A stretch of DNA of 64,000 bases from an uncultured Acidobacteriota bacterium (GTDB lineage Bacteria > Acidobacteriota > UBA6911 > RPQK01 > JAPXNP01). Shown in pieces: positions 24,942 to 64,000 of this stretch. Where the stretch lies: positions 1,087,914 to 1,151,913 of the forward strand of contig CAVZRV010000007.1 in the NCBI GenBank assembly GCA_963777605.1. The letters are read 5' to 3'. Position numbers and translations under genes: made by a program. Each line of letters opens with the position of its first letter. Position 1 is the stretch's first letter. The notes under the pieces are model-generated. The model ran no database searches and was not told the origin of the DNA. It saw nothing but the letters and a program-made list of their open reading frames with translations.

Positions 24942-26342
<1,401 letters not shown>

Positions 26343-41447: not shown

Positions 41448-42132
41448 TTCTTGGGCGCAGAGCGCCGACTTTGGTCGGCGCTCCTTGCGTGTCGACTATT
41501 GCCCCCCACCCTCCGGTTACCGTGTGCGTGCGTCTTGTGGGAGATTCATATGGAGTGCGGAACCGAAAGGTTCCGCTTTGAAACCCGGCAGGTCGTACGG
41601 AAGCGAAAGCTTCCGCCGTGCTGAACGACGAAGCCGCCGTCACGGAAGCCGCCTGGGTTCTGCCGGCTGCCTCGCATCGGCAGGCAGCAGGAGGACCGGG
41701 CGAGCGCATACCGAGGTGAGAGGCAACGGAAGCTTTCGCTTCCTGATGACGGGCGAACCGTTCCGCGCCAGGCAAAAGCGGAAGCTGCCGCTTCCGACAC
41801 TCCACATTAATGCGTCGATTTATCAAAGGTGTGCGGAAACCACCTCGCGCAGCCCTTAAAAGCTTCCCCAAAATCAGCTGAAACCCCCGGTGCTTCAAAA
41901 CCGGCCACAAGTGCCCGGAACATTGGACGCGGAACCTGGAACGAGACCCTCCTGATTCCCGCTTCCCTTTTCCCGATTCCCGGCTCCCTTTTCCCTCAAA
42001 CCCACGCCTCCTAACCCACGCCCCGACAATCACTTGAAAGAACTTGTGATTGTGATCACCAGACTCGTGTGACGGTCGCCACACGGAATCCTGTCCACCT
42101 CCCCCTAAGCTGTGCGCGAACGGGAGAAATGG

Positions 42133-45100
42133 ATGACTCAACACCTTTGGAAATTCGATGTCCGGAAGCGCTGCTGCCGCACATTCCTTCTCATACTGCT
42201 CTTGACCATTGCCACAACCAGCGGACTCCAGGCGGGAGTAACCCTGCAGTGGGATGCCAACTCGGAATCGGATCTGGCCGGCTATAACCTCTACCGTTCG
42301 GGGTCATCCGGCGGGCCATACAGCAAGCTCAACGGCTCCCTGATCAGCACGACTTCCTACACCGACAACACGATTATTGCCGGGAATACCTATTACTATG
42401 TTTGCACTGCCGTTAACACGTCGGGCCTGGAGAGTGGCTACTCGAACCAGGAGAGCTACGTCCTCGACATTCCCAACGACCCTCCCGTTGCTGTCGACGA
42501 CTCAGCACTGACTGTGATGAACTACGGCGTGACGGTGAGCGTGCTGGCCAACGACACCGATCCCAACGGCGACGCCCTCCAGGTCACGGGCGTCACCCAG
42601 GGAGCACACGGCAGTGTCACTTTCACGGCCACGTCGGTTCGCTACACCCCCGCGATCAACTTTTTCGGGACCGACAGTTTCTCCTACTCGATCAGCGACG
42701 GACGGGGCGGAACCGACACGGCTCTCGTTTCGGTGGTCATCTCCAAGCCCAACACCGCCCCCAACGCCGTCAACGACAGTGCCACAGTTCCGACCAACAC
42801 GGCGACTCCTATCAGTGTTCTCGCGAATGACGTCGACGCAGACGGCGATTCATTCGTGATTGTTGCAGTCACTCAGCCCTCGCATGGAGCGACCTTCTAC
42901 GCGTCCAGTTCCGTAACCTACACCCCTGAGAACGATTACACGGGAATCGACAGCTTCACCTACACGATTGCCGACGGTAAGGGCGGCACCGATTCGGCCA
43001 CGGTCTCGGTTACCGTGACTTCGACCAACCATCCGCCGACGGCCGCCAATGACAGCGCGTCGGTGGCCGAGGACGGGACCGTGACGATCGCAGTGACGGC
43101 CAACGACAGCGATGTCGATGGGGACACCCTGACGATCTCGGGCGTTACCCAGGGGGCGCACGGAGCGGTGGCGATCAACGGCGGAACCACGGTGACCTAT
43201 ACGCCCCAGGCGGGCTACAGCGGTTCGGACAGTTTCAACTACACGATCAGTGACGGTCACGGAGGATCGGCGAGCGCCGCGGTTTCAGTCCAGGTCGTTC
43301 AGAACAACTCCCAGCCGGTGGCGGCCAACGATTCCGCCTCGGTCCTGGAAGACTCCTCGGTCGTCGTCAATGTAACCGCCAACGACAGCGATCCGGACGG
43401 TGACACCCTGACGGTGTCCTCGGCAGGGGCACCGCTGCACGGGAGCACTTCGGTGGTTTCTTCGACGAGCGTGCGCTACACCCCGTCGGCCAACTACAAC
43501 GGTTCGGACAGCTTCAGCTACACGATCTCTGACGGCAAGGGTGGCACGGCGACGGCGACGGTCGCGGTCACGGTCAGCGCGGTCAACGACTTCCCGTCCG
43601 CGCACAACGACAGTGCCTCGACCCAGGAAGACCACTCCGTCACGATCACGGTCCTCTCCAATGATGAAGACGTTGACGGCGACGTGTTGAACGTGACTTC
43701 GGTCGGAGCGCCCCAGCATGGCGCGGCGGTAAAGAACGGCGATGGTTCCGTGAGCTACACGCCGGCATCGAACTTCAGCGGCAGTGACAGCTTCTCTTAC
43801 GCGATCTCCGACGGTAAGGGGGGCACTTCGGCGGCTACCGTCTCGGTCACGGTAACCGGCGTCAACGACGCCCCGAGCGCGGTCAACGACGCTGTGACTC
43901 TCCAGGAAGACACCTCGGCCACGGTCAGCGTGCTGAACAACGACTCCGATCCCGATGGCGACAGCCTGACCGTCTCGGCGGCCGGCCAGCCCCAGCACGG
44001 CACTACCGCCGTCCAGAACGGGACCTCGGTTCGCTACACTCCCGCGGCCAACTACCATGGCTCGGACACTTTCACTTACACCATCTCGGACGGCAACGGC
44101 GGCACGGCAACAGCCGCCGTCGCGGTGACGGTCAACTCCGTGAACGACGTCCCAAAGGCTCAGAATGACACCGCCTCGACTCCGGAAGGGCAGTCGGTGA
44201 CGGTCGCGGTACTGGCTAACGATTCCGATGACGATGGCGACAGCCTGGCCCTCTCCAGTGTCGGCTCTCCTTCGCACGGTACGGCGGTCAAGAACGGCAA
44301 CAACACGGTGACCTACACCCCGTCGGCCAACTTCAACGGATCCGATGCCTTCACCTACGCGATTTCCGATGGGCAGGGCGGAACCGCCTCGGCGCTGGTC
44401 AACGTGACGGTCAGTTCGGTCAGTGACGCTCCGGTGGCCAACGACGATGTCGCCACGACTCCAGAAGATTCCTCGGCCGTGATCGGTGTGACCGCCAACG
44501 ACACCGATGCCGACGGAGACACCTTGACGGTAACGGCCGTGACCCAGCCCCAGCACGGGACGGCGGCGGTGGAAGCGACCGGATCGGTGCGCTACACTCC
44601 GGCAGCGAACTACTACGGCAGCGACGCGTTCAGCTACACCGTCAGCGACGGTTCCGAGTCTTCAACGGCCCAGGTGCTGGTGACGGTGACGTCGATCAAC
44701 GACGTTCCCACGGCCTCGGCCGACACCGTCACCACGCTCAAGAACCAGGCCGTTTCGGTACCGGTGCTCTCGAACGACAGCGACGTCGATGAGGACACCC
44801 TCACGGTGACTGGTGTCACCCAGCCGCAGCACGGCTCGGCGACGATTACCGGCGGAACAGCAGTCCAGTACACGCCCGCCGACAACTACAGTGGGAGCGA
44901 CACCTTCTCCTACACGGTCGGGGACGGCAACGGCGGAGTTGCCGGTGCTACCGTGACGGTCACGATTGCGGCGACCAACGATGGGCCGACTGCGGTTGCC
45001 GACACCGTTGTGATCTCCGAGGACCAGCCGTTAGTCTTCAATCCCGCGGCCAACGACACCGATCCCGACGGCGACGTGCTCTCGGTTCAGTCGGTCAGCC

Positions 45101-47431
45101 AGCCCTCTCACGGGACGGTTACGGTTGAGTCGGCGACATCGGTTCGCTACACTCCCGCGGCCGACTACAACGGCGCTGATTCCTTCGGCTACACGGTTGC
45201 CGACCCCGCCGGCCTGATTTCGTCGGCGACCGTTTCTGTGACGGTGACCCCGGTCAACGACGCACCGGTTGCGGGTGACGACGTGGCCACCGTAGCGCCG
45301 GGACAATCGGTGACGATCGCCATCCTGGTCAATGACAGTGACGTGGACGGTGACCAGCTTTCGATCTCTTCGATCAACAACGCTCCCCACGGAACGGTGA
45401 CGAAAGGGCCCGAACAGGTTTTGCTCTACACGCCGAAGAACGGCTACGAGGGAACCGACGCATTCAAGTACACCATCAGTGACGGCAATGGTGGAACGGC
45501 CTCGGCCAACGTTCAGATTACCGTGACGGCGAGTAGCAATCAGCCTCCAGAAGCTGTGGCCGATTCGGTGACGACAGCCGAGGACCAGTCCGTGACGATC
45601 CCGGTGCTGGGCAACGACAGTGATCCGGATGGAGACATCCTCTCCGTCTCGTCGCTCACGGCTCCCCAGCACGGTACTGCAACGCGGCAGTCCGGGGAAA
45701 CGGTACTCTACGTGCCGGCCTCCAATTACAACGGTTCTGACGCCTTCTCCTACACGGTAAGCGACGGCAAGGGCGGAAGCACAACCGGTACCGTCTCGGT
45801 GACGGTGACTCCGGTCAACGATCCTCCCCAGCCGGTTGCCGACAGCATTACGGTGGAACAAGGACGGATCGGTGTTGGTCTCTGTCCTGGACAACGACCA
45901 GGATCCGGATGGCGACGTCATTACAGTCAGTCGAGTGTTGGCACCACAGAATGGAACGGCGGTTCTCCAGGATGACGGACAGGTTCTCTACACTCCGTCC
46001 GCTGGATACGTGGGATCCGACAGCTTCCAGTACGAGGTGTCCGACGGAAGGGAAGCCAGGGGCGCTCAGGTCAGTGTCCAGGTCGTGGAACAGGTTCAGC
46101 AGACCAGCGCCCTGGTCTTCCCGGTCACCGTAGATACCGGTTCGTCCAGCTACCTCTCCGGCACATACGTGGGAGTCGGGCTCTTAAACCCGGGTTCCAG
46201 CTACGAAACGGTCAACGTGGCCGATCGGAGCACGGGTGGGAAGAGCCTGTCCGAGGTCCAGCTGGCCGACCAGCTGCCCCCGAAGGGACAGACCGCATTT
46301 CTGACCGGAGAACTGCCTTCGCTGAGTCCCGACTCGGTCTCACTGTCGATCTCCGCCTCCAGTTCGAGCCTGCAGGGCTTTTTCATGGTAGGCGATTTCG
46401 CTTCCCGGAGAATGGACGGAGTGGGTGCCCAGCTCGATGCTTCGACCACCCTCTACTTCCCGGTGGTCCACGAATCATCGGTTGACTCGACTCTGATTCA
46501 GTTGCTCAACCCCTCCGCAACGGAGACGACCTGGATCAGCCTGGAACTCCATCAGCCCAACGGCAAGATCGCGGCCCAGGTGAATGCGGCCATGGCCGCG
46601 GGCGGGTCCTTCATGGGGACCATCAAGGAGATCTTCGGGATCAAGGGCTCCATGAGCGAAGGTTTCGTGGCGGCCAAGGCCACCAGGGCGATCTCCGGCT
46701 ACGAAGTGGTCGCGAGCCAGAAGAGCCTGACCTCGGGTTCCGGCCGGAAGCCGGCCTCGAGCCAGCGACTGTTGGCGCCGCACTTCTTCGCCGATTCGGA
46801 CGGCGGAACGTCGGTGGTTCGGATTCTCAATGCCGGAACCCAGACGGCGATTGCAACCATCAACGTCCGCAACGACGCCGGTGAAACCATGGCCCGGAAA
46901 GAGGTGACTCTGCCGGCCAGCCAGTTGACGGTGGTCACGGCCGCACAGATCCTCAACCTGGGGAACAAGAAGCCGAGCCAACTCCTGACCGGGTCGATCG
47001 ACGTCTCGATTCCCCAGGCAACACCGGTCGTGGCCAGTCTCGAGTTCACCGGTTTTGCCGGCAAGTCCTCGACGGCCGCACCGATGGTGGAATCCGGGTA
47101 CGAAGACACAGTCTTCCCCCAGGTTGCCCAGACCACCGACGGTTCGATCTACACCGGCCTGGCGATTCTGAACCCGAACGAGACTTCGGTCAACGTGACG
47201 GTCGAAGCCTACACCGCCGACGGTCGCCTGGCCCGGAGGAAGTCGTTCGACCTTGACCCGCGGGCCCGCAAGATTGACCTCCTGTCCGGAGCCTCCTTCT
47301 TCGGCCCCGACTTTGCCCAGACCAAGGGCCACATCCGGGTCCGGTCCACCGGCAAGGTCGTCAGCTACGCCATCTTCGGCGACGCCCGGGGAGAGTACCT
47401 GTCCACCATCGAAGGACAACAAGCGAAGTAA
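42133..47431 (+). CDS. Large secreted adhesin: FN3-like domain + 13 tandem-95/cadherin-like repeats + four-module C-terminal region; frameshift near 45860
   Basis: Signal peptide; LQWDAN...AGYNLYRS...YYYVCTAVN..GLES; repeats N..P.A.ND....V..ND.D.DGD.L...HG...YTP..NY.G.D.F.Y.ISDG. Confidence 0.9.
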
Positions 47432-47779
47432 CATTTCTGATTGGTTGGGCCGGTTTTGTGGGGGCGCTGTGCGCGCTGGGTTGGGTTGCTTGTTTCTGGT
47501 TCCTGGTTTCTGGTTTCTGGTTCAACGGGCGACGTGATGTGGTTGTCCCCTGAATTATGGGCCCCTGGTGGGGAAGGCGAGTGTTGGTCGGCCGGACTAT
47601 CGCCCCGCATTTCTGAACGCGAGCGGCGAGCGCTTCTCCAGACCTTCATCCATCGCCCACCCTGGATTTTGCCCCTATCGCCAATTGCTCCGGTCTGCGG
47701 AATAGCTCAGGAGACCGGAGACAGGAGACCGGAGACCGTGAATCCAAACGCGCAACGCCGGAACCTCGGAACGCGGAAC

Positions 47780-48860
47780 CTCGGAACCCCGGAACCCACC
47801 ACCGTCCGGTTCAGTTGCGCGCACGTTTTGGGAATTCATTTGGAGTGCGGAACCGAGAGGTTCCGCTTTGAAACCCGGCACGTCGAACGGAAGCGAGAGC
47901 TTCCGCCGTGCTGAACGACGAAGACGCTTTGTGGGCGAAGCTGCAGGCCCGGAGTGATTCGGGAGTCTGAATTTCGAATGCGAATCCGAATAGCGAACTC
48001 GAAGGCCGAAACCGATGTGCGAACTCGGAATTTCACTCACCATTTGCCCTTCCCACTTCGCAATTTGAAAAGGCTCCTTCAAGAGGGCCAGCCGATCGCT
48101 CCACCGCGCCCGAGGTGAGAGGCAACGGAAGCTTTCGCTTCCTGATGACGGGCGAACCGTTCCGCGTTGGACAAAAGCGGAAGCTGTCGCTTCCAGCACT
48201 CCACATTAAAGTGTCGGTTTATTAACGATTTGCGGAAAAGCCAGCGCAGAGCCTCGTAGGACGTTCCAATAATCAACTGAACCCAGGACACTCCCTACCG
48301 GAACCCCGGAACCCCGGCACCCCGGAACCTTGGAACCCGGAACCCCGGAACCCACCACCGTCCGGTTCAGTTGCGCGCACGTTTTGGGAATTCATTTGGA
48401 GTGCGGAACCGAGAGGTTCCGCTTTGAAACCCGGCACGTCGAACGGAAGCGAAAGCTTCCGCCGTGCTGGACGACGAAGACGCTTTGTGGGCGAAGCTGC
48501 AGGCCCGGAGTGATTCGGAAGTCTGAATTTCGAATGCGAATCCGATCGAAGCTGAAACCGATGTGCGAACTCGGAATTTCACTCACCATTTGCCCTTCCC
48601 ACTTCGCAATTTGAAAAGGCTCCTTCAAGAGGGCCAGCCGATCGCTCCACCGCGCCCGCGGTGAGAGGCAACGGAAGCTTTCGCTTCCTGATGACGGGCG
48701 AATCGTTCCGCGTTGGACAAAAGCGGAAGCTGTCGCTTCCAGCACTCCACATTAAAGTGTCGGTTTATTAACGATTTGCGGGAAAGCCAGCGCAGAGCCT
48801 CGTAGGACGTTCCAATAATCAACTAAACCCAGGACACTCCCTACCGGAACCCCCGGAACC
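47780..48860 (+). repeat. Tandem duplication of a ~545 bp intergenic unit containing REPIN family B
   Basis: ~47780-48310 is nearly identical to ~48340-48860; units joined by GGAACCC heptamers. Confidence 0.9.
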
Positions 48861-48954
48861 CCGGAACCTACCGTGAACCACCGGAACCAGAACCGGAACC
48901 ACCAGGAACCAGGAACCTCGGAACCCGGAACCCCGGAACCCCCACACCGCACTG

Positions 48955-49045
48955 GGTATCGTGCCGGGAACCCGGGGCCGCGGCTTCGCCTTACCCCCGG
49001 CTCTGTGTCCGGCACCAAACCGCGCCACCGCCGGAACCCGGAACC
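48955..49045 (+). repeat. Repeat family D; also at ~60095-60190 and inverted at ~28298-28345
   Basis: GTGCCGGGAACCCGGGGCCGCGGCTTCGCCTTA.CCCCGGCTCTGTGTCCGGC.CCAAACCGCGCCACCGCCGG shared between sites. Confidence 0.85.
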
Positions 49046-49229
49046 CCGGAAGCTTCCCTTTTGATTTTGCCATCCCCTTTGGTTTACTATTCCCCCCGAA
49101 ATTCGAAATTCGAAATTCGACCTTCGGACTTTGCATTTCGAAATTTGAATTGCTTCACCTCGGGGGAGGAGGAAGCGTTGACTCCACGGACGGACCGACG
49201 CATCGCTGTCGCCAGGATACGTTCGGAAC

Positions 49230-51965
49230 ATGTTGCGTTGGATTCTTATAAGTCTTGCTCTTTGCCTCACCGGGCTGGTTCTCCCTGCCCGCGGTCAATC
49301 CGTCACTCTGCAGTGGGACCCGAGTCCTGACTCGAGCGTGGTCGGCTACAACGTCTACCGTTCGACGCGGTCGGGTACGGGCTACCAGCGTCTGAATTCC
49401 AGCCTGGTTTCCGCGGCCCGGTTCACCGATGCCACGCTTCAATATGACACCAGCTTCTTCTACGTCTGTACGGCCGTCAATGGAGCCGGCCTGGAGAGCG
49501 GTTACTCCAACGAGGTCTCCTACTTCGTGCGCCAGGAAAACGCGGCCCCGTCGGCGCAAAACGACGTCGCCGTAACCGCCGAAGACTCACCTCTTTCCAT
49601 TTTTCTACTGGCCAACGACAGCGACCCCAACGGAGACGCGCTGGCTGTTGTCGGGCTCGGGGTTCCGAGATTCGGAACGGTTTCACTTGTGGCCGGGGGG
49701 ACCGTTCTCTATCGCCCTGGCGCCAACTTCTTCGGCGCCGACTCGTTCACCTACACGGTCAGTGACGGCAGCGGCGGGACCGCGACCGGCAGCGTCTCCG
49801 TCACGGTGACCCCGGTCAACGACGTTCCCCTGCCGGAAACCGACCGTGCCACGACCAATTCCGACACGTCCGTTGTCATTGAACTGCTGGCCAACGACGT
49901 GGACGTGGACGGCGACTCCCTGTCGGTCGCTTCGGTCGATCCGCCCGCCAACGGCTCGGCCCGGCTTGAGGGAGGGACCGTCATATACACTCCTCGGACC
50001 GACTTCAGCGGATGGGACACCTTTGCCTACACGGTCGTCGATGCCCAGGGGGCACAGGCTGTCGGATCGGTGATGGTGCAGGTGATCAAAGTCGATCCTC
50101 CCCTGATGGCGGTTGCCGACGTGACCCGGGTTTCGGAGGATTCTTCGATCCTGGTCGATGTCACCGCCAACGATGTCGGCTCCCGCGAGGTTCCGTTCGT
50201 GGTCACAGTCGTTGAACCGCCCCGTTCGGGGAAGGCTGTGACGGCATCCGGAGGGGTGCGCTACACCCCTGTCGCCGACTACTTCGGTGCGGACGCGTTC
50301 ACCTACCAGATTCGGGACAAGGACGGAATGACCTCGAGCGCCCGGGTCAGCATCGACGTCACTCCGGTCAACGATCGCCCCGAGGCCCGTGCCGACGTTG
50401 CTCTCACCCAGGCTGGGAAGGCGCTCCGGATTGACGTTCTCCTCAACGACAACGATGTTGACCGGGACCCTCTGCAGGTGACTGCCACCACCCATCCCCA
50501 GTACGGGACGGTCACGACCGACGCGGACGGACAGCTCACCTACACACCGAGGGCCGGCTTTACCGGGATTGACCGGTTTCGTTACACCGTCACCGATGGG
50601 ACGGAGAGTTCGTCGGCCGAAGTGGAATTCCGGGTTGAGGCGCGGGATCCGGCGGGAGACCGGATCCTTCTCCCTTCGCGAATGGAGTCCCGCTCGGCGG
50701 TCTTCGACGATGTCTTTGTCGGGGTGGCCCTGCTCAATCTCCAGCCCTACTTCGACCGGGTCCGGCTCGACGGCTTCGGCGAGCAGGGGGAGAACCTGGC
50801 CGGCGTCACCGAGGAAGCGGCCCTGCCACCCGGCGGTCAGCGGGCCTTCCTGGCAGCCGAACTTCCCGGGGGTGACGGGGCGGCGGGATACCTGGCGGCG
50901 TCGGCTTATTCGCCAGGTCTCGAGGGCTTCTTCATGGTCGGCGACTACCAGTCGCGCCGGATCGACGGGATCGGTGCACGGCCGGCTTCCGGTCGGGAAC
51001 TCTTCCTTCCCGAAGCCGACATGTCGGCCGAGAGCGACACCTTCATCCAGGTGGTTAACCTGGAAGCGAAAGCCGGAAGGGTCCAGCTGGAACTCTACGG
51101 TCCGCAGAGCCGGACCCCCGTGCGCTGGTCGGGGGCACTTGTCCCATCGGGAACGCTTCGCGGTTCGATCTCCGACTTTTTCGGCTACCGGGCCGGGGTC
51201 ACGGGCTACCTGCGCATCAGCGCCGACGTCGAGATGCTTGCCTATGAGGTCGTTGCCGGGACCGAGTGGCTGGAAGCCCTGCCCAGCCTGGCCCCGAAGA
51301 CTTCCTCGTTCTGGATGGCGCCCCACATTTTTGCCGATCGACAGGGGGGCGACACCCTGATTCGGATTCTCAACAACAGCATCCTCACCGTCTCGGCGAC
51401 TGCGACGGTCTACAACGACGCCGGGGTCCAGATCGTCTCGCGGCCCGTCTACCTGCCGTCCCGGCAACTGACCACGATCTCCGCCACGAGCCTGTTCGGG
51501 GAGTACCTGATGCGGGAAGGGATCATCTCGGGTTCCCTGAAGGTGAGCTTTGGCAGTTCAGGAACTCCACCGGTCGTCGCTACCGTGACATACTCTTCCT
51601 CGCGCTTCCGGACCTCCCTGCCCATGGCCTCTGCCGGAAAGACCGAGGCGATCTTTCCCCAGGTAGCCCACTCGGCCGACGGGAGGATCTACACCGGGCT
51701 GGCGGTCTTCAACCCGACCGCCGGGTTCGCCACCGTGACGGTAGAGGTTTATGACGCCAACGGAAACCGGAAAGGAGTGACGTCGCTTCGGCTGGCGCCC
51801 AATGCGCGCCGCTCGGAACTGCTCAACGGGGCCTCCTATTTCGGTCCAGGATTCGAACAACTCGGCGGCCACGTCCGGGTCACCAGCGACCGCCCCGTCA
51901 TTAGCTACCTGACTTATGGAGACGCCAACGGGGAGTTCCTCTCCGCGCTCGAGTCAAGCAAGTAG
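49230..51965 (+). CDS. Paralogous adhesin: FN3-like domain + 4 tandem-95 repeats + four-module C-terminal region
   Basis: Same architecture as 42133..47431; shared motifs FVGVALLN, L.GFFMVGD..SRR.DG.GA, APH.F, FPQVA...DG.IYTGLA..NP, HVRV.S...V.SY...GD..GE.LS. Confidence 0.9.
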   Translation: MLRWILISLALCLTGLVLPARGQSVTLQWDPSPDSSVVGYNVYRSTRSGTGYQRLNSSLVSAARFTDATLQYDTSFFYVCTAVNGAGLESGYSNEVSYFVRQENAAPSAQNDVAVTAEDSPLSIFLLANDSDPNGDALAVVGLGVPRFGTVSLVAGGTVLYRPGANFFGADSFTYTVSDGSGGTATGSVSVTVTPVNDVPLPETDRATTNSDTSVVIELLANDVDVDGDSLSVASVDPPANGSARLEGGTVIYTPRTDFSGWDTFAYTVVDAQGAQAVGSVMVQVIKVDPPLMAVADVTRVSEDSSILVDVTANDVGSREVPFVVTVVEPPRSGKAVTASGGVRYTPVADYFGADAFTYQIRDKDGMTSSARVSIDVTPVNDRPEARADVALTQAGKALRIDVLLNDNDVDRDPLQVTATTHPQYGTVTTDADGQLTYTPRAGFTGIDRFRYTVTDGTESSSAEVEFRVEARDPAGDRILLPSRMESRSAVFDDVFVGVALLNLQPYFDRVRLDGFGEQGENLAGVTEEAALPPGGQRAFLAAELPGGDGAAGYLAASAYSPGLEGFFMVGDYQSRRIDGIGARPASGRELFLPEADMSAESDTFIQVVNLEAKAGRVQLELYGPQSRTPVRWSGALVPSGTLRGSISDFFGYRAGVTGYLRISADVEMLAYEVVAGTEWLEALPSLAPKTSSFWMAPHIFADRQGGDTLIRILNNSILTVSATATVYNDAGVQIVSRPVYLPSRQLTTISATSLFGEYLMREGIISGSLKVSFGSSGTPPVVATVTYSSSRFRTSLPMASAGKTEAIFPQVAHSADGRIYTGLAVFNPTAGFATVTVEVYDANGNRKGVTSLRLAPNARRSELLNGASYFGPGFEQLGGHVRVTSDRPVISYLTYGDANGEFLSALESSK

Positions 51966-52509: not shown

Positions 52510-52968
52510 CTAGTTCTGATCGTTGAGACGCTGCTGGGCGAGTGAGGTGAGACTTGCCAGCGTATTCGCCTCAGTTGGGAAAACGGCGACCGCACCTTCG
52601 ATCGTGTCTTCGTCGCGGTTGGGGAAAGAGCGGGAAACCTCCTCGTTGAGCCGATCGAGGACGCGCAGGGCGCTTTCAGTGGTGGCGTGTTGAAGGATAA
52701 TGCCGACTGTGTCCGGGCTCAGCTTCCCCATAAAGTCGGTGGCACGAATACTTTGCCCGAGACACCGGACCAGTCTTTCGACTCGCTCATCGTCGCCGGA
52801 ACTCCGTACCCGGAACATCGCAAAGGCGGCGAAATGCCCGTAGCGGTTCGATTCAGCCAGTTCCCGCCTGAGGAAGTATTGAAATCCTTCCGCGCTGAAA
52901 CAGGACACCTCCGCCGGTAACGAGGGCTCCAGAATTGCTGCTACGTTTCCTTCCACCTGGAGATCCAT
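52510..52968 (-). CDS. Stand-alone degenerate GGDEF-like protein with RxxD I-site
   Basis: F...LRRELAES.RYG.F, SIRATDFMGKLSPDTVGIIL, A..V..RL, GAVAVFP..A.....L...A. Confidence 0.75.
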   Translation of the reverse strand: MDLQVEGNVAAILEPSLPAEVSCFSAEGFQYFLRRELAESNRYGHFAAFAMFRVRSSGDDERVERLVRCLGQSIRATDFMGKLSPDTVGIILQHATTESALRVLDRLNEEVSRSFPNRDEDTIEGAVAVFPTEANTLASLTSLAQQRLNDQN

Positions 52969-53021
52969 AGAATTTTGTCCATATTACACGACTGACATCA
53001 CATCCTTTATGTATCACTCGG

Positions 53022-53078
53022 CGCCGACGCGCGTTAATGCCCGGATGCCCGACGCCGACGCGTGTTAACGCCCGGATG
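53022..53078. repeat. Two 26 bp direct repeats (31 bp period) in the leader of the GGDEF-like gene
   Basis: CGCCGACGCG(C/T)GTTAA(T/C)GCCCGGATG at 53022-53047 and 53053-53078. Confidence 0.85.
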
Positions 53079-53086
53079 TCAACCAA

Positions 53087-53102
53087 TGCAATTGATGTTC
53101 CA
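53087..53102 (-). promoter_or_regulatory. Sigma54 promoter for the GGDEF-like gene
   Basis: Minus strand TGGAAC-ATCAA-TTGCA (GG-N10-GC). Confidence 0.65.
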
Positions 53103-53386
53103 GTTTGTGGGAACAAGGTATCCGAAGAGCAGGTGCCCCATGTGCCAAACGGCCGCCAGTACGCCGCAAGTGCTGTAAGGCCGGGGAGACGTCGGCCTAA
53201 GTAATGCCCGAAAAAGGATTTCGAGGCCGCCGTTCTGTCATGGAATCCGACACCAGTTGTGAACCTCTTGAAACATCATTGTGGGTAGTCTGTTTCACAG
53301 CAGGGCAGGCCTCGGAAGTCCTTTGAATGAGCTAAGAGTTTTCTTTTCAGTAGCTTAGGCCGTTGCGTATAGTGCAGGAGTGACTC

Positions 53387-53402
53387 TGGCACGGGCAATG
53401 CA
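53387..53402 (+). promoter_or_regulatory. Sigma54 promoter for the small secreted protein, with IHF-like site at 53345-53357
   Basis: TGGCACG-GGCA-ATGCA; TTTCAGTAGCTTA upstream. Confidence 0.75.
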
Positions 53403-53478
53403 ACTGTAAGCGGCTGTGAATAAAAATCTTGCACCAAATCGACGTCAGGTCTACAGTACGGTTCCAGCGGGGTTCTCA

Positions 53479-53946
53479 ATGAGCAGAAAAGCCTGGTTTG
53501 CATTCCTGGCATGTGTGTTGTTGTGTGTCGCTCCGGCCATGGCCGAGGATTCGGTTTCCGAAGCCGTGACACCAAGTAATGTCTACGTGGGCTCGAACGT
53601 CCTCCAGGTGAAAGACGCTAACGTATTCACGACCTTTACGCTGACCAACACTACATCGTTCTGGTTCAATCCGCGGATATACCTGATCAACCTGGATGGT
53701 GAGATCGTCCGGCAGTTTGCTCCCCTGATGAAGGCTTTCGGGTCCTGGCAGAAGACCAGCATCGACCTGATTGGTGACGACTTTCAGGGCAGCGTCTGGA
53801 TCGTTTCTCCCCAGCCGATCGTGGCATCGGCCTTCATTCACCAGCTCCACGACGACGGAACAGTCTCCCTGGTTACCACCAACAGCCTCCAAAGAATGGA
53901 TCGCGACGTCGCCGACGCAGTCATCCAGAACTTGTCGGAACGGTAA
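53479..53946 (+). CDS. Small secreted protein resembling one copy of the adhesin C-terminal module
   Basis: Signal peptide ending AMA; T.FTLTN....., IYL.N.DG..V, L...GS, F.GSVWIVS.QPIVA. Confidence 0.75.
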   Translation: MSRKAWFAFLACVLLCVAPAMAEDSVSEAVTPSNVYVGSNVLQVKDANVFTTFTLTNTTSFWFNPRIYLINLDGEIVRQFAPLMKAFGSWQKTSIDLIGDDFQGSVWIVSPQPIVASAFIHQLHDDGTVSLVTTNSLQRMDRDVADAVIQNLSER

Positions 53947-54099
53947 TGCGTCTGGGACGGGCGTCCCCGCCCGTCTCGTAGCGAGAGTTTTCTCGAGGTT
54001 CCCGGTTTCTGGTGCCTCGTGTGAGACAGGCGTCCTGCCTGTTGCTTCGGCCCAAGCCTGACTCCGCGTCCTGATTCTGGTTCCTGGCGCTGCATTCGT

Positions 54100-54720
54100 C
54101 GTTCAGCGTGACGCGGTTGTTGATGCGATTTTGCGGTGTCATTTCTGAACGCGAGTGGAGCTTCTCCAGACCTTCATCCACTGCCAACCCAGGATCTTGT
54201 CCCTGTCCTCACCGATCCCGCCCGCCCGGAACCTTTGAGCACCGTCCGGTTACCTCGCACGCGCGTTCAGGGATTCATTTGGGGTGCGGAACCGAGAGGT
54301 TCCGCTTTGAAACCCGGCACGTCGAACGGAAGCGAGAGCTTCCGCCGTGCTGAACGACGAAGACGCCGTCACGGAACCTGCCTGGATTCGGCCAACTACC
54401 TCGCATCGACAGGCAGCAGCCGATCGCTCCACCGCGCCCGAGGTGAAAGGCAACGGAAGCTTTCGCTTCCTGATGACGGGCGAACCGTTCCGCGTTGGAC
54501 AAAAGCGGAAGCTGTCGCTTCCAGCACTCCACATGAAAGTGTCGGTTTATTAACGATTTGCGGAAAAGCCAGCGCAGAGCCTCGTAGGACGTTCCAATAA
54601 TCAACTAAACCCAGGGTGCATCCAACCAGACACTGGCCCCCGCAACGTTGACCGTGAAACCGTGAACAGTGCCACGTCTCACCAGAAACCAGAAACCAGA
54701 AACCAGAAACCTTGAACCCC
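54100..54720 (+). repeat. Left ~620 bp direct repeat flanking the exosortase gene
   Basis: Nearly identical to 55755-56385. Confidence 0.92.
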
Positions 54721-54735
54721 ATAACCTCGGAACGC

Positions 54736-55647
54736 CTAACCCTCCGGCGCGAGCCGCCGTTCCACGACCTGCAACCCCTTGATGATCACCGCCATGATAA
54801 CGAGGGCGATCAGGAAGAAGACGATCCCCCCGTCGTGGTGAAGGTCGCCGTCGAGAAAACCGGGGTCAACGTGGATGGAAAGCAGGGTCAGCGTCACGAT
54901 CCGGATCCCGTTCTTGAGCACCGACATGGGGAAGAGCAGCAGAATCAAGACGAAGCGGCTCCAGGGGCGCTTGAGCATGAAGTAGCCTGCCAGCAGGCCG
55001 GTGATCACCAGGGCCAGGGTGGAGCGGATGCCGCTGCACTGCTCGGCTATTTCGATCGCCACTCCGGGCAGGCGAAAGGTGTATCCCTCTCGGAAGACCG
55101 GAGTGCCGACCAGTTTAAACATCCAGTCGGTGATCCAGGCCGATCCCCACAGCAGCGAGTCGGTTACGGACTCGAGCAGGGCAATCGGAGGTGGAATGAT
55201 GAGGAGAAGAAATCCAAGGGGGAAAAGCACCTTCCGGGCCGCCTGCCAGCCCAGGGCATAAATGAACCCGGCCCAGTATGCGGCCACGAAGGAGGCCATC
55301 CAGAGGGTGAGTGCTGCCGTGTCGGGAAGCTGCGCCGGGGACCGGAAGGCCAGGGCGGCAAAGAGGACTGCGGCGAGTGCCGGAAAAGCGGCGAGGGAAA
55401 TCCGGACGCGCGGAACCGATGCCAGTGCCTCCTTCTGGGTCCAGAGCAGGTAAAGAAAAATCAGCGGGATCAGCCCGATGTGACTATGGTGCGGGTCCTG
55501 TTCCAGAGTCAGCAGTGCCGTGTCCCAAAGTGGCTGCCAGTAAAGCGCCGCCACGGCCGCGCTCACGCCCAGCCAGCGCCAGAACGAAGCCGGCACCTGT
55601 TTCAACCGTTGCTCCAAAGCCATCGCCACTCCCATGACTGCAGACAC
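54736..55647 (-). CDS. Exosortase (EpsH/XrtA-like transpeptidase)
   Basis: Multi-TM protein; SH..LIP, G.PVFREG, IAEQCSGIRS (Cys), KNGIRI (Arg), LHH.GG (His). Start may be 55635 or 55623. Confidence 0.92.
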   Translation of the reverse strand: MSAVMGVAMALEQRLKQVPASFWRWLGVSAAVAALYWQPLWDTALLTLEQDPHHSHIGLIPLIFLYLLWTQKEALASVPRVRISLAAFPALAAVLFAALAFRSPAQLPDTAALTLWMASFVAAYWAGFIYALGWQAARKVLFPLGFLLLIIPPPIALLESVTDSLLWGSAWITDWMFKLVGTPVFREGYTFRLPGVAIEIAEQCSGIRSTLALVITGLLAGYFMLKRPWSRFVLILLLFPMSVLKNGIRIVTLTLLSIHVDPGFLDGDLHHDGGIVFFLIALVIMAVIIKGLQVVERRLAPEG

Positions 55648-55754
55648 TATATCGTCAAATTGTTCGAATGTAGTTAGGGGAGTGGGGGTTGGGGGCGCTG
55701 CGCGCCGTTTTGGGTTGATCGTTCCTGGTTTCTGGTTTCTGGTTACGGGTTATG

Positions 55755-56385
55755 CGTTCAGCGTGGCGTGGTTGTTGATGCGATTTTGCGGTGTCATTTC
55801 TGAACGCGAGTGGAGCGCTTCTCCCGACCTTCATCCACTGCCCACCCAGGATCTTGTCCCCGTCCTCACCGACCCCGCCCGCCCGGAACCTTTGAGCACC
55901 GTCCGGTTACCTCGCACGCGCGTTCAGGGATTCATTTGGGGTGCGGAACCGAGAGGTTCCGCTTTGAAACCCGGCACGTCGAACGGAAGCGAGAGCTTCC
56001 GCCGTGCTGAACGACGAAGACGCCGTCACGGAACCTGCCTGGATTCGGCCAACTGCCTCGCATCGACAGGCAGCAGCCGATCGCTCCACCGCGCCCGAGG
56101 TGAAAGGCAACGGAAGCTTTCGCTTCCTGATGACGGGCGAACCGTTCCGCGTTGGACAAAAGCGGAAGCTGTCGCTTCCAGCACTCCACATGAAAGTGTC
56201 GGTTTATTAACGATTTGCGGAAAAGCCAGCGCAGAGCCTCGTAGGACGTTCCAATAATCAACTGAACCCAGGGTGCATCCAACCAGACACTGGCCCCCGC
56301 AACGTTGACCGTGAAACCGTGAAACCGTGAACAGTGCCACGTCTCACCAGAAACCAGAAACCAGAAACCAGAAACCTTGAACCCC
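55755..56385 (+). repeat. Right ~630 bp direct repeat flanking the exosortase gene
   Basis: Nearly identical to 54100-54720; one extra ACCGTGA heptamer. Confidence 0.92.
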
Positions 56386-56630
56386 GGAACCTTACTTTCT
56401 TCCCAAAAACGGTTATAATCAGAATCCGTTGAGCCTTGGAGTTCCTTGAACTCCCAACCTATTGAATCTTGATGGCGTAAAGTCGCCATGTGTGAACCGC
56501 GGGAAACAAAACCATTAACCTGGCTACCCACCTTTGCCCTTGGGGGAGCGAAGCGTCGGGCCGGGAAAAGTGGTTCAAACCCTGCGTTCACGCCGGTTTC
56601 CGATCGAATGCACTGCATTTTAAGGAGCAC

Positions 56631-56645
56631 TGGCATGCCACGTGC
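56631..56645 (+). promoter_or_regulatory. Sigma54 promoter of the sugar transferase operon
   Basis: TGGCAT-GCCAC-GTGC (GG-N10-GC), ~180 nt upstream of the ATG. Confidence 0.65.
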
Positions 56646-56823
56646 GGAAATTGTGATCAACGTTACCGTTTCAGCCAGGCCCCGAAGTGGGATCGTGACT
56701 GACATGGCGAAGCTGTAGGTAAACGTGAGCGTTTGCAGAATCGTTGCGAAACCAGCCTCGTCAGGTGGCATAAGAAAGAGAGTAATCTAAGGTGAAACAG
56801 AATTCTCTTGGGGGAGAATTATT

Positions 56824-57973
56824 ATGAAGGCATCTACGGTGACGGACATGGGATGGACCCCGGTCCGGATCGACGAGCGGCCGCGCCAGGACGAGATCCT
56901 CTCCGAGTCGGCGTTTCAGAAGCTGGTCGTGTTGGAGCGGAAGCGTTCCGAACGCTCCGGGGACCCGTTCATCCTGGTCTGCGTTGACGTCTCGGCCCTG
57001 CGGGGCGACACGGGACAGGTTGACCCGGTCCTGCGCGATTCCATTTTTTCTCTGCTCCTGTGCACGTTTCGGGAAACCGACGTCGTCGGCTGGTACCAGC
57101 GGGACCGGATCGCGGCTGCCCTGCTCACCGAACTGGGCGACGTCGAAGCGGGACGACGTGCGCAAGGTGGTCCTGGAGAAGATCGAGCGCTGCCTGGGAT
57201 GCCGGCTGCCGAGTGAGGTTTCTTCGAAGTTGACGATCTCGGTCTACTACTTTCCCGACGAGGTGGCCGGCGAGACGTCGGTCGAGATCCGGGAAGTTCT
57301 CTATCCCGACCTGATGGGCCAGGAGCGCGACCGGAAGGGGGCTACGGCCCTGAAGCGGGCCGGCGACGTTCTGGTCAGCCTGACCCTGCTTCTGATCCTG
57401 TCTCCGATTCTCCTGCTGATCGCCGGCCTGATCAAGCTGACCTCGAAGGGGCCGGTGCTCTTCAGCCAGGAGCGACTGGGCCAGTTCGGCCAGCCGTTCC
57501 AGTTCCTGAAGTTTCGGTCGATGTACACCAATTCCGACTCCTCGGTTCACGAGCAGTACATCGAGGACTACATCAAAAACGGCAAGAGTTCGTCTTCCGA
57601 CCCCGACGGCAAGCCGGTCTTCAAGCTGGTCAAGGACGCCCGGGTCACGCCGGTGGGGCGTATCCTGCGGAAGACCAGCCTGGACGAGTTTCCGCAGTTC
57701 CTCAACGTCCTGCGGGGGGACATGTCGCTGGTCGGCCCGCGGCCGCCCATCCCCTACGAACTGCGCCAGTACGACATCTGGCACCGCCGCCGGATCCTCG
57801 AAGTCCGGCCCGGGATCACCGGTTTCTGGCAGGTCCACGGCCGCAGCCGAACGACCTTCGACGAGATGGTCCGCATGGACCTCCACTATGCCCGCCACTG
57901 GTCCTTCTGGCTCGACGTCAAGCTCCTCTTCCAGACTCCCCTCGCCGTAATCAAAGGCGACGGGGCGGTTTAG
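56824..57973 (+). CDS. Priming sugar-phosphate transferase (Bac_transf) with N-terminal degenerate GGDEF-like domain; frameshift near 57150
   Basis: KRAGD, GPVLFSQER.G, F.FLKFRSM, D.RVT.VGR.LRKTSLDEFPQF.NVL.GDMSLVGPRP, PGITG.WQV; N-terminus F...V.LERKRSERSG.PF...FRETDVVGW. Confidence 0.9.
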
Positions 57974-58376: not shown

Positions 58377-59378
58377 ATGATCAACATCGGCGTAATCGGA
58401 TACGGATACTGGGGTCCCAATATCGTTCGGAATTTCATGGCTCATTCCGACTGCCGCGTGACGGTGGTCTGTGACCAGAACCCGGCCTCGCTGGAGCGGG
58501 CCCAAAAGCTCTACCCCTCGCTCGAGCTCTGCTCGTCGGCTGAGGAGATGCTCCGGTCGCCCAACCTGGATGCCGTAGCCGTAATTACGCCGGTCTCGAC
58601 CCACTACCCTTTCGCCCGGATGGCGCTCGAGCACGGCAAGCACGTGTTCGTTGAGAAGCCCTTCACGCTGAATTCCGACGAGGCCCGCCAGCTCATCGAC
58701 CTGGCCGACGCCCGCAAGCTCGTCATCATGGTGGACCACACTTTCCTCTTTACCGGTGCGGTCCAGAAGATGAAGGAAGTGGTCGACTCGGGCCACCTCG
58801 GCAACCTCCTCTACTACGACTCCACCCGGGTCAACCTGGGACTTTTCCAGCACGATGTGAACGTGGTCTGGGACCTGGCCCCCCACGACCTCTCCATCAT
58901 GGACTTCCTGGTTTCGGGGCAGGCCGAGGCACTGGTGGCCACCGGACAGCGGCACTACAACGGCCACGAAGACCTGGCCTACATCACGGTCTACTACCCC
59001 GACTCCATGATCGCCCATTTCAACGTCAACTGGCTCTCGCCCGTCAAGGTCCGCATGACCCTGCTCGGCGGGGAGCGGAAGATGCTGGTCTGGAACGACC
59101 TGGAGCCGGACGAGAAGATCAAGATCTACGACAAGGGCGTGGACGTCAAACAGGCGGGCGACGTCTACAACCTCCTGGTCAGCTACCGCAGCGGCGACAT
59201 GGTGGCCCCCCGCGTCCCCCAGATCGAAGCTCTCAAAGCCGAAACCCGTTACTTCCTCGACTGCATCCAGAACGGCGAGCAACCCCACAACAACGGCCAG
59301 GCCGGCCTCCGGGTCGTGAAGATGCTGGAAGCCGCGGATCAGTCAATCCAGGACCGCGGGCGGCTGGTGGAGCTCTAG
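58377..59378 (+). CDS. Gfo/Idh/MocA oxidoreductase (WbpB/WlbA-like nucleotide-sugar dehydrogenase)
   Basis: GYGYWGPN, GKHVFVEKP, WDLAPHD, WLSPVKVR; EPS context. Confidence 0.88.
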   Translation: MINIGVIGYGYWGPNIVRNFMAHSDCRVTVVCDQNPASLERAQKLYPSLELCSSAEEMLRSPNLDAVAVITPVSTHYPFARMALEHGKHVFVEKPFTLNSDEARQLIDLADARKLVIMVDHTFLFTGAVQKMKEVVDSGHLGNLLYYDSTRVNLGLFQHDVNVVWDLAPHDLSIMDFLVSGQAEALVATGQRHYNGHEDLAYITVYYPDSMIAHFNVNWLSPVKVRMTLLGGERKMLVWNDLEPDEKIKIYDKGVDVKQAGDVYNLLVSYRSGDMVAPRVPQIEALKAETRYFLDCIQNGEQPHNNGQAGLRVVKMLEAADQSIQDRGRLVEL

Positions 59379-59669
59379 CGCGCGCAGCGCGCGTTTCAAG
59401 TGTGTGGGCGCTGCGAGTGGTTTCGGGTGTGAGGCGCTTGGCGCGGTCCCGGGTTTCGAGAGGGGGATCGGCCGCAAAGTAATCCAGGCAGCCCTGCCTG
59501 AGATGTCGGCCAGGCAGCTTGCCTGGCGACAGGCAACATCTGAGATCTACGATTGGTGATTGGTGATTGGTCGTGAAGAACCTTTCACACGAGCTTGAGA
59601 TCGAGTAGCCTTCGTACCCGAAACCCTCGAACGCGAAGAACCGGTGAACGCGATGGAACCGGCGGGCGG

Positions 59670-59875
59670 AGGCCCCTGAAGGGGGCCCTGTTTCAGCCCA
59701 GGCTTTAGCCTGGGAAAGACCCCGGCCCGCCACCGATCCGGCCCTGAAGGGGCCGGCGTTTCACCGGAATCGCGTCCCCGGGAAAGGGAAGCGCCCCTTC
59801 AGGGCGCACCTGGGGCGGCAGGCCCCGTGACCCAGGCTGAAGCCTGGGCTGAAACGACGGCGCCTTCAGCGCCGG
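59670..59875. repeat. Non-autonomous A-B REP module of the tnpA family; also at ~60688-60732, 60916-61045 and 32485-32670
   Basis: GGCCCCTGAAGGGGGCC..TTTCAGCCCAGGC....GCCTGGG ... GGGCTGAAACGACGGCGCC. Confidence 0.85.
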
Positions 59876-60201
59876 AGATCTCGCCGTACCGGGACCCCGG
59901 CCGAAGACGGTTTCCCGAGGCGGGTTTCGGGTGGAATCAGGAATGAAGAATCCCCTCCGCGAAACCTCAGCGCCACCGCGCCCCAGCGGTGAAAATCCGC
60001 AGAAGACCGGACCCAGGTTTGCACCAAGACGGAGGGCAGGAACCTTGAATCAGAAACCTGAACCCTGAAACCGGTAACCCGCCCACCGAACTGGGTGCCG
60101 TGCCGGGAACCCGGGGCCGCGGCTTCGCCTTAACCCCGGCTCTGTGTCCGGCGCCAAACCGCGCCACCGCCGGAACCCGGAACCCGGAACCGAAGGAACC
60201 C

Positions 60202-60669
60202 ATGGACAATCTCCAATCCCTCAACAACGTCACCCTCGGCAACGACGTCTACCTCGGTAAATTCATCAACCTCTACGGCTGCACGATTGGGGACCACTCC
60301 AAGATCGGGGCGTTCGTGGAGATCCAGAAGAACGCCGTCGTGGGCAGGAACTGCAAGATCTCGAGCCACACCTTCGTCTGCGAAGGGGTCACCATCGAAG
60401 ACGACTGTTTCATCGGCCACGGGGTCTGCTTCATCAACGACATCTACCCTCGGGCCACCGCCGAGGGGCAGCTCCAGACCGAAGCCGACTGGGTGGTCGA
60501 GAAGACCCTGGTCCGGCGCGGAGCCTCGATCGGCTCGGGAGCCACCATCCTCGCCAGGGTCACCATCGGCGAAGGCGCCATCGTCGGAGCGGGTGCGGTC
60601 GTCACCCGCGACGTCCCCCCCCGCACGGTCGTAGCCGGCAACCCGGCAAAGGTGCTGAGGGAACTGTAG
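60202..60669 (+). CDS. Hexapeptide-repeat N-acetyltransferase (WbpD/WlbB-like)
   Basis: IG..SKIG.FVEIQ, CKISSHTFVCEGV, F.ND.YPRA, GASIG.GATIL, VAGNPA. Confidence 0.9.
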   Translation: MDNLQSLNNVTLGNDVYLGKFINLYGCTIGDHSKIGAFVEIQKNAVVGRNCKISSHTFVCEGVTIEDDCFIGHGVCFINDIYPRATAEGQLQTEADWVVEKTLVRRGASIGSGATILARVTIGEGAIVGAGAVVTRDVPPRTVVAGNPAKVLREL

Positions 60670-61846: not shown

Positions 61847-62613
<767 letters not shown>

Positions 62614-62633
<20 letters not shown>

Positions 62634-63888: not shown

Positions 63889-64000
63889 CGGCTGCCCCCT
63901 CTCCTCCTTCCGGTCGACCACACCGTCTTGAGGATAAGGCACTTGCCGCTTCATGTGGGGAATTCTATTTCGCCGTTTTTGGGGAGTTTATCATCGCCAG

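What the first reader, a model, noticed from the sequence alone, without database searches (positions are those of the whole stretch)
52510..57973. Priming glycosyltransferase fused to an RxxD-retaining degenerate GGDEF domain, plus a free twin: candidate c-di-GMP gate on the first step of EPS synthesis
Seen: the sugar transferase N-terminus (F...LERKRSERSG.PF ... RETDVVGWYQRDR, RETD at 57070-57081) and the 152 aa protein at 52510-52968 (RATDFMGKLSPDTV) both follow the GGDEF fold pattern. Both have lost the GG(D/E)EF active site but keep RxxD at the canonical distance upstream of it. Established: RxxD I-sites in enzymatically dead GGDEF domains bind c-di-GMP (PelD, PopA). Characterised c-di-GMP control of EPS enzymes acts on synthase complexes (BcsA, Alg44, PelD), and I know of no characterised priming transferase with such a domain. 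Inference: direct allosteric control of the initiating transferase, possibly tuned by the free paralog.
Basis: partly seen in the sequence, partly recalled or inferred. Interest (0 to 1): 0.8.

Follow-up and report, generated by a model that had tools for sequence, protein, structure and literature searches.

The report
Dead cyclase domains on polysaccharide starter
The enzyme predicted to start this bacterium's surface polysaccharide carries an inactive copy of the domain that makes the biofilm signal c-di-GMP, and a second free copy lies 4 kb away; both keep the residues that bind the signal in known proteins, so the signal likely switches the first synthesis step directly, though binding is untested.

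Summary
Observation confirmed. Both domains have the GGDEF fold (PDB profile E 8e-9 and 2e-11; model Z 13.3 and 19.3) and have lost the catalytic motifs. The transferase gene is split here by one extra base near 57147, but the closest homologue (87% identical in the N-part) and 15 of 15 genome loci with the domain are single ORFs. Both families keep more than RxxD: the third primary-site R/K and the secondary cross-linking Arg, at 98-100%. Caveat: RxxD is also in 40 of 45 active cyclases of this lineage. The 'twin' is not a close paralog: it is a separate deep clade. It lies next to a sigma-54 activator in 8 of 15 related genomes but near the fusion in only 3, and 4 carriers show no fusion, so 'tunes the transferase' is only one option. 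Binding and regulation are untested. This scan already noted the fusion in at least 11 other genomes; three look-ups found no note on the free domain.

The parts
56824..57147 (+). 5' part of the fused gene: catalytically dead GGDEF-fold domain (from about residue 23). Primary I-site R83 (57070-57072) and D86 (57079-57081); secondary-site candidates R41 (56944-56946) and R44 (56953-56955)
57145..57150 (+). One-base frameshift in the loop before the last long helix of the domain; likely assembly error, not proven
   Evidence: P0005 (87% identical N-part) is one 382-aa ORF; 3 of about 46 genes tested in this assembly are frame-split; no reads of this strain
57149..57973 (+). 3' part: rest of the dead domain (conserved K at 57179-57181, the third primary-site position), LYPDL linker, then a small monotopic phosphoglycosyl transferase (priming glycosyltransferase) with intact motifs KRxxD, KFRSM, DxRxT, SLDExPQ, GxMSxVGPR
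   Evidence: PF02397 E 1.5e-66; TIGR03025 287.5 bits, under its 295.55 cut-off; motifs
52510..52968 (-). Free 152-aa dead GGDEF protein. R42 (52843-52845), R75 (52744-52746), D78 (52735-52737) and R106 (52651-52653) are invariant in its family
56631..56645 (+). Sigma-54 (-24/-12)-like promoter motif upstream of the fused gene
   Evidence: Same motif 234-266 nt upstream in 6 of 10 loci of the window's family and 6 of 31 overall; background 0.5% per 600 nt. Consensus recalled
53087..53103 (-). One-mismatch sigma-54-like motif upstream of the free gene
   Evidence: Read by eye; the strict pattern missed it here but found it 103-147 nt upstream in 4 of 15 orthologues
53387..53401 (+). Sigma-54-like motif upstream of the small unknown gene
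   Evidence: 3 of 6 orthologues
53479..53946 (+). Small protein with a signal-peptide-like N-terminus, no Pfam family; adjacent to the free gene in 6 genomes of the family
54736..55647 (-). Exosortase (EpsH family); also beside the fusion in G001, G007, G010, G014 and G021
   Evidence: PF09721 E 1e-46; TIGR02602 over cut-off
58377..60669 (+). Gfo/Idh/MocA sugar dehydrogenase (58377-59378) and hexapeptide acetyltransferase (about 60205-60669); they follow the fused gene in most homologous loci and likely make its nucleotide-sugar donor
24942..26333 (-). Sigma-54 REC-AAA-HTH activator: best genome match of the activators that flank the free dead domain in relatives; DUF6982 gene (24408-24833, +) beside it
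42112..51965 (+). Two large Ig-like (Big_9/cadherin-like) adhesin genes; the first is split by a frameshift near 45900. Adhesin homologues flank the free gene in 8 relatives

Best explanation
The gene at 56824-57973 encodes a priming phosphoglycosyl transferase fused to a GGDEF-fold domain that has lost its catalytic motifs and likely acts as a c-di-GMP receptor, which would switch the first step of a Wzx/Wzy-type polysaccharide pathway, probably on. Shown: the fusion across many lineages, the fold, loss of the active site, and retention of the primary site (R83, D86, K/R119) and secondary Arg (R44, R41). Inferred: a c-di-GMP dimer bridges the primary site of one domain and the secondary Arg of another, as in DgcR and PleD, pairing two transferases or closing tandem domains, and this changes activity. 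The one-base split in this assembly is likely an error. The free 152-aa protein is a separate, old family of dead GGDEF proteins with the same four binding residues. It is likely a second c-di-GMP receptor of the same sigma-54-controlled polysaccharide/adhesin module. Its target is unresolved: sigma-54 activator about 0.35, transferase in trans about 0.3, other about 0.35.
For: Fusion: 25 of 25 non-window proteins found with the N-domain carry PF02397. 15 single-ORF loci come from Acidobacteriota, a Fibrobacterota, a delta-proteobacterium, a Pseudomonadota and one unassigned MAG. 252 clusters at 50% identity score E<=1e-30. Conservation in 153 domains: R83 and D86 153/153, K/R119 99%, R41 99%, R44 98%, while the GGDEF positions vary freely. 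Free family: all four residues in 62 of 62 scored rows, versus 29 of 39 active cyclases. These map to DgcR R163, R206, D209 and R237 (alignment; residue roles from passages of bioRxiv 2020.08.28.271692); HHalign puts R44 on R42 and K119 on R106. Three proteins carry two tandem dead domains before the transferase, RxxD in all six. All 14 fusion-bearing genomes checked have full-length GGDEF domains; intact GG(D/E)EF motifs were read in the five near ones. PMC2952852 (passages) reports that only a small minority of degenerate GGDEF domains in hybrids keep RxxD, so the fold does not need it. Precedent for allosteric control of a priming transferase: EpsW-EpsZ (PMC12802240, passages).
Against: No binding or activity data. 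RxxD is ancestral here: 40 of 45 active domains have it, and R42- and R106-equivalents are at 80% and 81% in active domains, so part of the conservation may be structural. The 153 domains were picked by a profile in which these residues were already invariant. HMMER aligned the cyclases' third Arg one helical turn before K119, so that assignment needs a 3-4 residue loop insertion. Small monoPGTs are described as functional monomers (PMC12802240), so dimerisation need not activate. Other strictly kept residues (E38, G89, W90, P144) are not binding-site residues and point to a protein interface. The wzc-like gene of this genome is also frame-split, which fits pathway decay as well as assembly error.
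Confidence: 0.55

Rival explanations
1. The dead domain is a ligand-free scaffold or protein-interaction module, for example for Wzc or the sugar-supply enzymes; the Arg/Asp residues are kept for folding.
For: High local baseline of RxxD and of the other two arginines in active domains. A family-specific ERKRxERS helix and a GWY strand are as conserved as the binding residues. The fusion lies directly after wzc in G383, G296 and G207.
Against: Four surface-type charged residues stay at 98-100% in two separate deep clades, while every catalytic residue drifted. RxxD is lost from most degenerate domains of hybrids (PMC2952852).
Confidence: 0.2
2. The domain binds c-di-GMP, but the output is location, complex assembly or turnover of the transferase (PopA-like), not a change in catalytic rate.
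For: c-di-GMP binding at the PopA I-site changes its localisation (PMC2952852 and PMC12564702, passages). Small monoPGTs work as monomers. Free versions of the N-type domain occur beside fusions (G382, G342) and alone (G014).
Against: The domain is joined to the catalytic core by a short conserved linker (LYPDL; Y 94%, P 89%) of nearly fixed length, as expected for direct coupling.
Confidence: 0.17
3. The free protein acts on transcription: as a c-di-GMP-loaded partner of the sigma-54 activator it controls the polysaccharide/adhesin genes and does not touch the transferase. This concerns the free protein only and is compatible with the best explanation.
For: Adjacent to an orthologous activator in 8 of 15 carriers. 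In 5 of 5 stand-alone dead domains from more distant families of the phylum it follows two tandem activators, and wza lies close downstream in 4 of those 5. All 15 carriers have the activator, one of them frame-split. 4 of 15 carriers show no fusion. Sigma-54 motifs precede the fusion and the free gene in the window's family.
Against: In the window's close relatives it has moved away from the activator (26 kb here, other contigs in five genomes). Co-location may only mean co-regulation. In G029 a free dead domain with a membrane anchor directly precedes a small transferase gene. Outside the window's family the free and fused forms were never found together (6 versus 14 genomes of 401), as expected if the free form replaces the fusion.
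Confidence: 0.35
4. In this strain the fused gene is truly broken, so the system is decaying here whatever it does in relatives.
For: One-base frameshift in the assembly; the wzc-like gene and one adhesin are also split.
Against: Both parts keep all motifs and 76-87% identity to an intact homologue. Unrelated genes are split too (a C10 gene; IstB-like ORFs). Another long-contig relative (G010) is split at a different place.
Confidence: 0.15

Closest known systems
PelD (Pseudomonas aeruginosa Pel system) and BcsE: degenerate-GGDEF c-di-GMP receptors of synthase pathways
   Same: Dead GGDEF fold with RxxD plus a downstream Arg (PelD R367, D370, R402; PMC8461298 passage); linked to exopolysaccharide genes. 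PelD matches the models at Z 10.5 and 8.9.
   Different: Those are separate subunits of synthase-dependent systems. Here the domain is fused to the initiating enzyme of a Wzx/Wzy-type pathway, has no GAF domain or transmembrane bundle, and is structurally closer to active cyclases than to PelD.
Product-inhibition site of active diguanylate cyclases (DgcR, PleD)
   Same: Primary RxxD, third Arg and secondary Arg positions align with DgcR R206/D209, R237 and R163.
   Different: No catalytic site: the DxD motif, the FK-N-D-G-H segment and GG(D/E)EF are gone, so cross-linking would be an output, not feedback inhibition.
EpsW-EpsZ of Myxococcus xanthus
   Same: Proposed direct allosteric activation of the priming transferase of a Wzx/Wzy pathway through dimer formation (PMC12802240, passages).
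   Different: The signal is a phosphorylated free receiver domain acting on a large transferase; here it is a fused second-messenger domain on a small transferase.
HfsJ of Caulobacter crescentus
   Same: A holdfast glycosyltransferase stated to be allosterically activated by c-di-GMP (PMC8846402, one passage).
   Different: Recalled as a WecB/TagA-family enzyme without a GGDEF domain and not the priming transferase; not tested here.
FleQ-FleN control of pel genes
   Same: A sigma-54-type enhancer-binding protein plus a partner protein responds to c-di-GMP at polysaccharide genes (PMC3424551, listing and start of abstract); a possible model for the free protein.
   Different: FleQ binds the signal itself and FleN is an ATPase (recalled); a free dead GGDEF partner of an activator was not found in the searches.

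Membership tests
GGDEF fold | Sequence profile and structure match to diguanylate cyclase domains | tested here: met
   Z 19.3; Z 13.3
Active diguanylate cyclase | GG(D/E)EF loop and metal/substrate-binding residues | tested here: not met
   These positions are variable or deleted in both families
Degenerate-GGDEF I-site receptor (PelD/PopA type) | RxxD five residues before the GGDEF position | tested here: met
   153/153 and 63/63
Degenerate-GGDEF I-site receptor (PelD/PopA type) | Third basic residue (PleD R390 / PelD R402 / DgcR R237 position) | tested here: met
   Free family R106 63/63 at the canonical +31 spacing. Fused family K/R119 99%, assigned through HHalign with a 4-residue loop insertion; HMMER placed it one turn off
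Degenerate-GGDEF I-site receptor (PelD/PopA type) | Binds c-di-GMP through these residues | not testable with these tools
   Needs a binding assay
PelD proper | Transmembrane helices plus GAF domain, in a pel operon | tested here: not met
   152-aa soluble protein and a 140-residue domain fused to PF02397; no GAF hit; neighbours are exosortase, sugar-modifying, wza/wzc and activator genes
Small monotopic phosphoglycosyl transferase (Bac_transf) | PF02397 core with DE catalytic dyad and flanking motifs | tested here: met
   E 1.5e-66; motifs
Large monoPGT (WcaJ/WbaP/EpsZ) | N-terminal four-helix membrane bundle and nucleotide-binding-like domain | tested here: not met
   Only the C-terminal 200 positions of TIGR03022, TIGR03023 and NF041877 match, all under cut-off; the N-region is GGDEF-like
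Wzx/Wzy-dependent pathway | Genomic link to wza/wzc-type export genes | tested here: met
   The fusion follows wza-wzc in G383, G296 and G207. In the window's genome wza/wzc lie on another contig. wzx and wzy themselves were not searched

The most novel reading that the evidence does not exclude
These bacteria run a two-tier c-di-GMP switch built from dead cyclase domains. One is fused to the priming transferase and gates polysaccharide initiation by ligand-bridged pairing. A free one acts as a c-di-GMP-sensing partner of the sigma-54 activator that transcribes the same genes, or stands in for the fusion on ordinary priming transferases.
Probability: 0.25. Interest if true: 0.82.

Novelty: new variant of a known kind. 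Interest (0 to 1): 0.62.

Why it matters
A 2025 paper states that post-translational control of Wzx/Wzy pathways is incompletely understood, while c-di-GMP control is well described for synthase pathways (PMC12802240). A one-protein sensor-enzyme would give a direct route from c-di-GMP to the committed step that spends undecaprenyl phosphate. It can be tested with one purified protein and point mutants. Standard annotation misses the domain: no Pfam or NCBIfam hit, and sources name these proteins only as sugar transferases. It occurs in 20 of 401 sampled genomes of the phylum. The free family adds a candidate stand-alone receptor tied to sigma-54 activators at polysaccharide loci.

Tried and rejected
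Frameshift check: no run held half of the stretch's words and no RNA holder was listed; no contig of this strain bridged 57145-57150. Complex prediction of the free protein with the window's sigma-54 activator plus two c-di-GMP gave no answer (score 0.02, mark 0.32), which is no evidence either way; pairs with the transferase were not modelled. Tree of 53 rows (15 free, 16 fused, 22 of 45 active domains drawn at random): each dead family is a supported clade, but their joint separation from active domains is weak (93/44), so a common origin is not shown. A hybrid versus non-hybrid comparison of RxxD failed as a control: my EAL pattern over-called, and the four clear hybrids all keep RxxD. The metagenome locus search with the free-family alignment could not run, as no block was conserved enough. 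Foldseek searches never ran; the VIA-align searches did. Of 150 representatives, 50 show the transferase downstream, 80 end within 40 residues of the domain and 20 run into unrelated tails; I read these mostly as fragments and did not count them as fused. No sigma-54 motif was found upstream of 10 of 10 adhesin genes, or of the 21 fusion loci outside the window's family. The ESM Atlas gave GGDEF for the free protein (0.98) but only leads under 0.9 for the N-domain. O'Toole 2021 PNAS, the survey of monoPGT fusions, is not held; it or its supplements may list this fusion. Paper searches for the fusion or the free module listed no description of either; PMC11257628 has no occurrence of GGDEF or c-di-GMP in its main text.
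Full report
Observation. The window holds a 152-aa ORF at 52510-52968 (-) and a sugar-transferase gene split over two frames, 56824-57216 and a frame ending at 57973. The second frame is a Bac_transf domain (E 1.5e-66). The free protein hits Pfam GGDEF at E 1e-4, under the cut-off; the N-part hits nothing. Names of related loci and proteins point to Acidobacteriota.

The two halves are one gene. A search with the stretch after the break found P0005, a 382-aa protein 87% identical over the first 108 residues and 76% over the middle; the window has one extra base near 57147. Of 80 genome loci fetched with P0005, 15 carry the N-domain, and all 15 are single ORFs. All 25 non-window proteins found with the N-domain carry PF02397. 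Frame splits affect 3 of about 46 genes tested in this assembly, including a wzc-like gene. No reads of the strain were available. I put assembly error at about 85%.

Fold. Profiles of both families rank diguanylate cyclase chains first in the PDB (best E 8.1e-9 and 1.9e-11). AlphaFold2 models align to GGDEF domains at Z 13.3 and 19.3, above the first unrelated folds at 7.4 and 9.4. The N-domain model is of homologue L026. Both families have lost GG(D/E)EF and the substrate-binding segment after the first strand.

Binding residues. In 153 domains from 150 representatives, R83 and D86 are invariant, position 119 is K or R in 99%, R41 is at 99% and R44 at 98%, while the five GGDEF positions vary widely. 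In 63 free-family rows, some from the same genomes twice, R42, R75, D78 and R106 are invariant. The alignment to DgcR (20-residue tag offset inferred from its RKSD motif) puts these on R163, R206, D209 and R237. The DgcR preprint describes a c-di-GMP dimer bridging R206xxD209 of one subunit and R163 of the other, with R237 equivalent to PleD R390 (passages). HHalign carries the mapping to R44 and K119 of the fusion, though HMMER placed the third residue one turn earlier. That R41 equals PleD R313 is recalled, not tested. Three proteins have two tandem dead domains before the transferase. Control: active domains from the same order have RxxD in 40 of 45 and all four residues in 29 of 39. The motif is therefore ancestral, and the evidence is its retention while catalysis decayed, not its presence. 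The hits were also selected by a profile that favoured these residues.

Signal source. The genome has six intact cyclase domains. All 14 fusion-bearing genomes checked have full-length GGDEF domains.

The free protein. It is not a recent copy of the fused domain: tblastn finds no link, and the tree gives two long-branched clades with weak joint support. It occurs in 15 of 41 relatives; the fusion occurs in 13 of 41, and 4 carriers of the free gene (90-98% complete) show no fusion. It lies within 4.5 kb of the fusion in 3 of 15, beside adhesin genes in 9 of 15 (window included), and beside an orthologous sigma-54 activator in 8 of 15. That activator's best match in this genome is at window 24942-26333. 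Five stand-alone dead domains from more distant families of the phylum follow two tandem activators; wza lies close downstream in four, and an ordinary large transferase follows in three. In G029 a membrane-anchored dead domain directly precedes a small transferase. In 401 genomes of the phylum the free form was found in 12 and the fusion in 20, together only in the window's family (only 9-10 candidates were scored per genome). A sigma-54-like motif lies at a fixed distance upstream of the fusion in 6 of 10 family loci and of the free gene in 4 of 15, against 0.5% background. So the free protein belongs to a sigma-54-controlled polysaccharide/adhesin module, and gene order allows either the activator or a transferase as its target.

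Mechanism. Shown: fusion, fold, dead active site, retained binding residues, gene neighbourhood. Inferred: c-di-GMP binding (about 0.7); bridging of two domains; a direct change of transferase activity (overall 0.55); activation rather than inhibition (about 0.7, from the general link of c-di-GMP to polysaccharide output). Against simple activation by pairing, small monoPGTs are described as monomers. The dehydrogenase and acetyltransferase that follow the fusion in most loci likely supply a modified amino sugar; the donor was not determined.

Comparison and novelty. It works like PelD or BcsE but is not a member of those systems: no GAF domain or membrane bundle, and a different pathway class. 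Allosteric control of a priming transferase has a precedent in EpsW-EpsZ, and c-di-GMP activation of a holdfast glycosyltransferase in HfsJ. Six paper searches listed no description of this fusion or of the free module. I saw only listings and selected passages of the papers cited, and the main survey of monoPGT fusions was not available. This scan's own notes already describe the fusion in at least 11 other genomes (unchecked AI notes, not support). Look-ups for the free protein found none.

Verdict. A real, conserved and unannotated architecture: a new variant of the degenerate-GGDEF receptor, with function untested. Interest 0.62.

Noticed in passing
P0090, P0091, P0092: Priming transferases with two tandem dead GGDEF domains, RxxD kept in all six copies; P0152 has an aspartokinase-like region ahead of the fusion, possibly a read-through artefact.
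   Followed up: partly
L266:2594-5446 (G382), L268:4626-6142 (G342), L267:5087-5749 (G014): Free copies of the fused-type domain (not the 152-aa family): two beside the fusion in G382, one overlapping its start in G342 (possibly a split tandem), one alone in G014.
   Followed up: partly
L244:6020-7394 (G029): Membrane-anchored dead GGDEF gene between wza and a small priming transferase, its end overlapping the transferase start: a split version of the fusion logic.
   Followed up: partly
L239-L243: Order activator-activator-dead GGDEF in five genomes of distant families, with wza close downstream in four and wzc and a large transferase in three.
   Followed up: partly
window 24942-26333; alignment A4: The activator's receiver domain has Glu instead of the phospho-acceptor Asp in several orthologues, so it may respond to something other than phosphorylation. 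A DUF6982 gene lies next to it in 9 genomes.
   Followed up: partly
window 53950-54720 and 55660-56390: A non-coding stretch of about 630 bp occurs twice around the exosortase (97% identity), with shorter copies elsewhere on this contig and C27; intergenic regions also carry tandem AGAAACC repeats.
   Followed up: partly
window 61847-63954: IS21-like transposase pair (IstA/IstB, named from recall) at the contig end, IstB split in two frames; no second copy found in the assembly.
   Followed up: partly
window 61088-61525: HicB-like domain fused to a small nucleotidyltransferase domain (PF05534, PF01909).
   Followed up: no
window 53479-53946: Small protein of no known family with a signal-peptide-like start, conserved at 51-62% beside the free gene and adhesins in five relatives.
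   Followed up: partly
window 42112-51965: The adhesins share an unannotated C-terminal region of about 430 aa and, by eye, no PEP-CTERM-like tail, although an exosortase is adjacent; its substrate is unknown.
   Followed up: no
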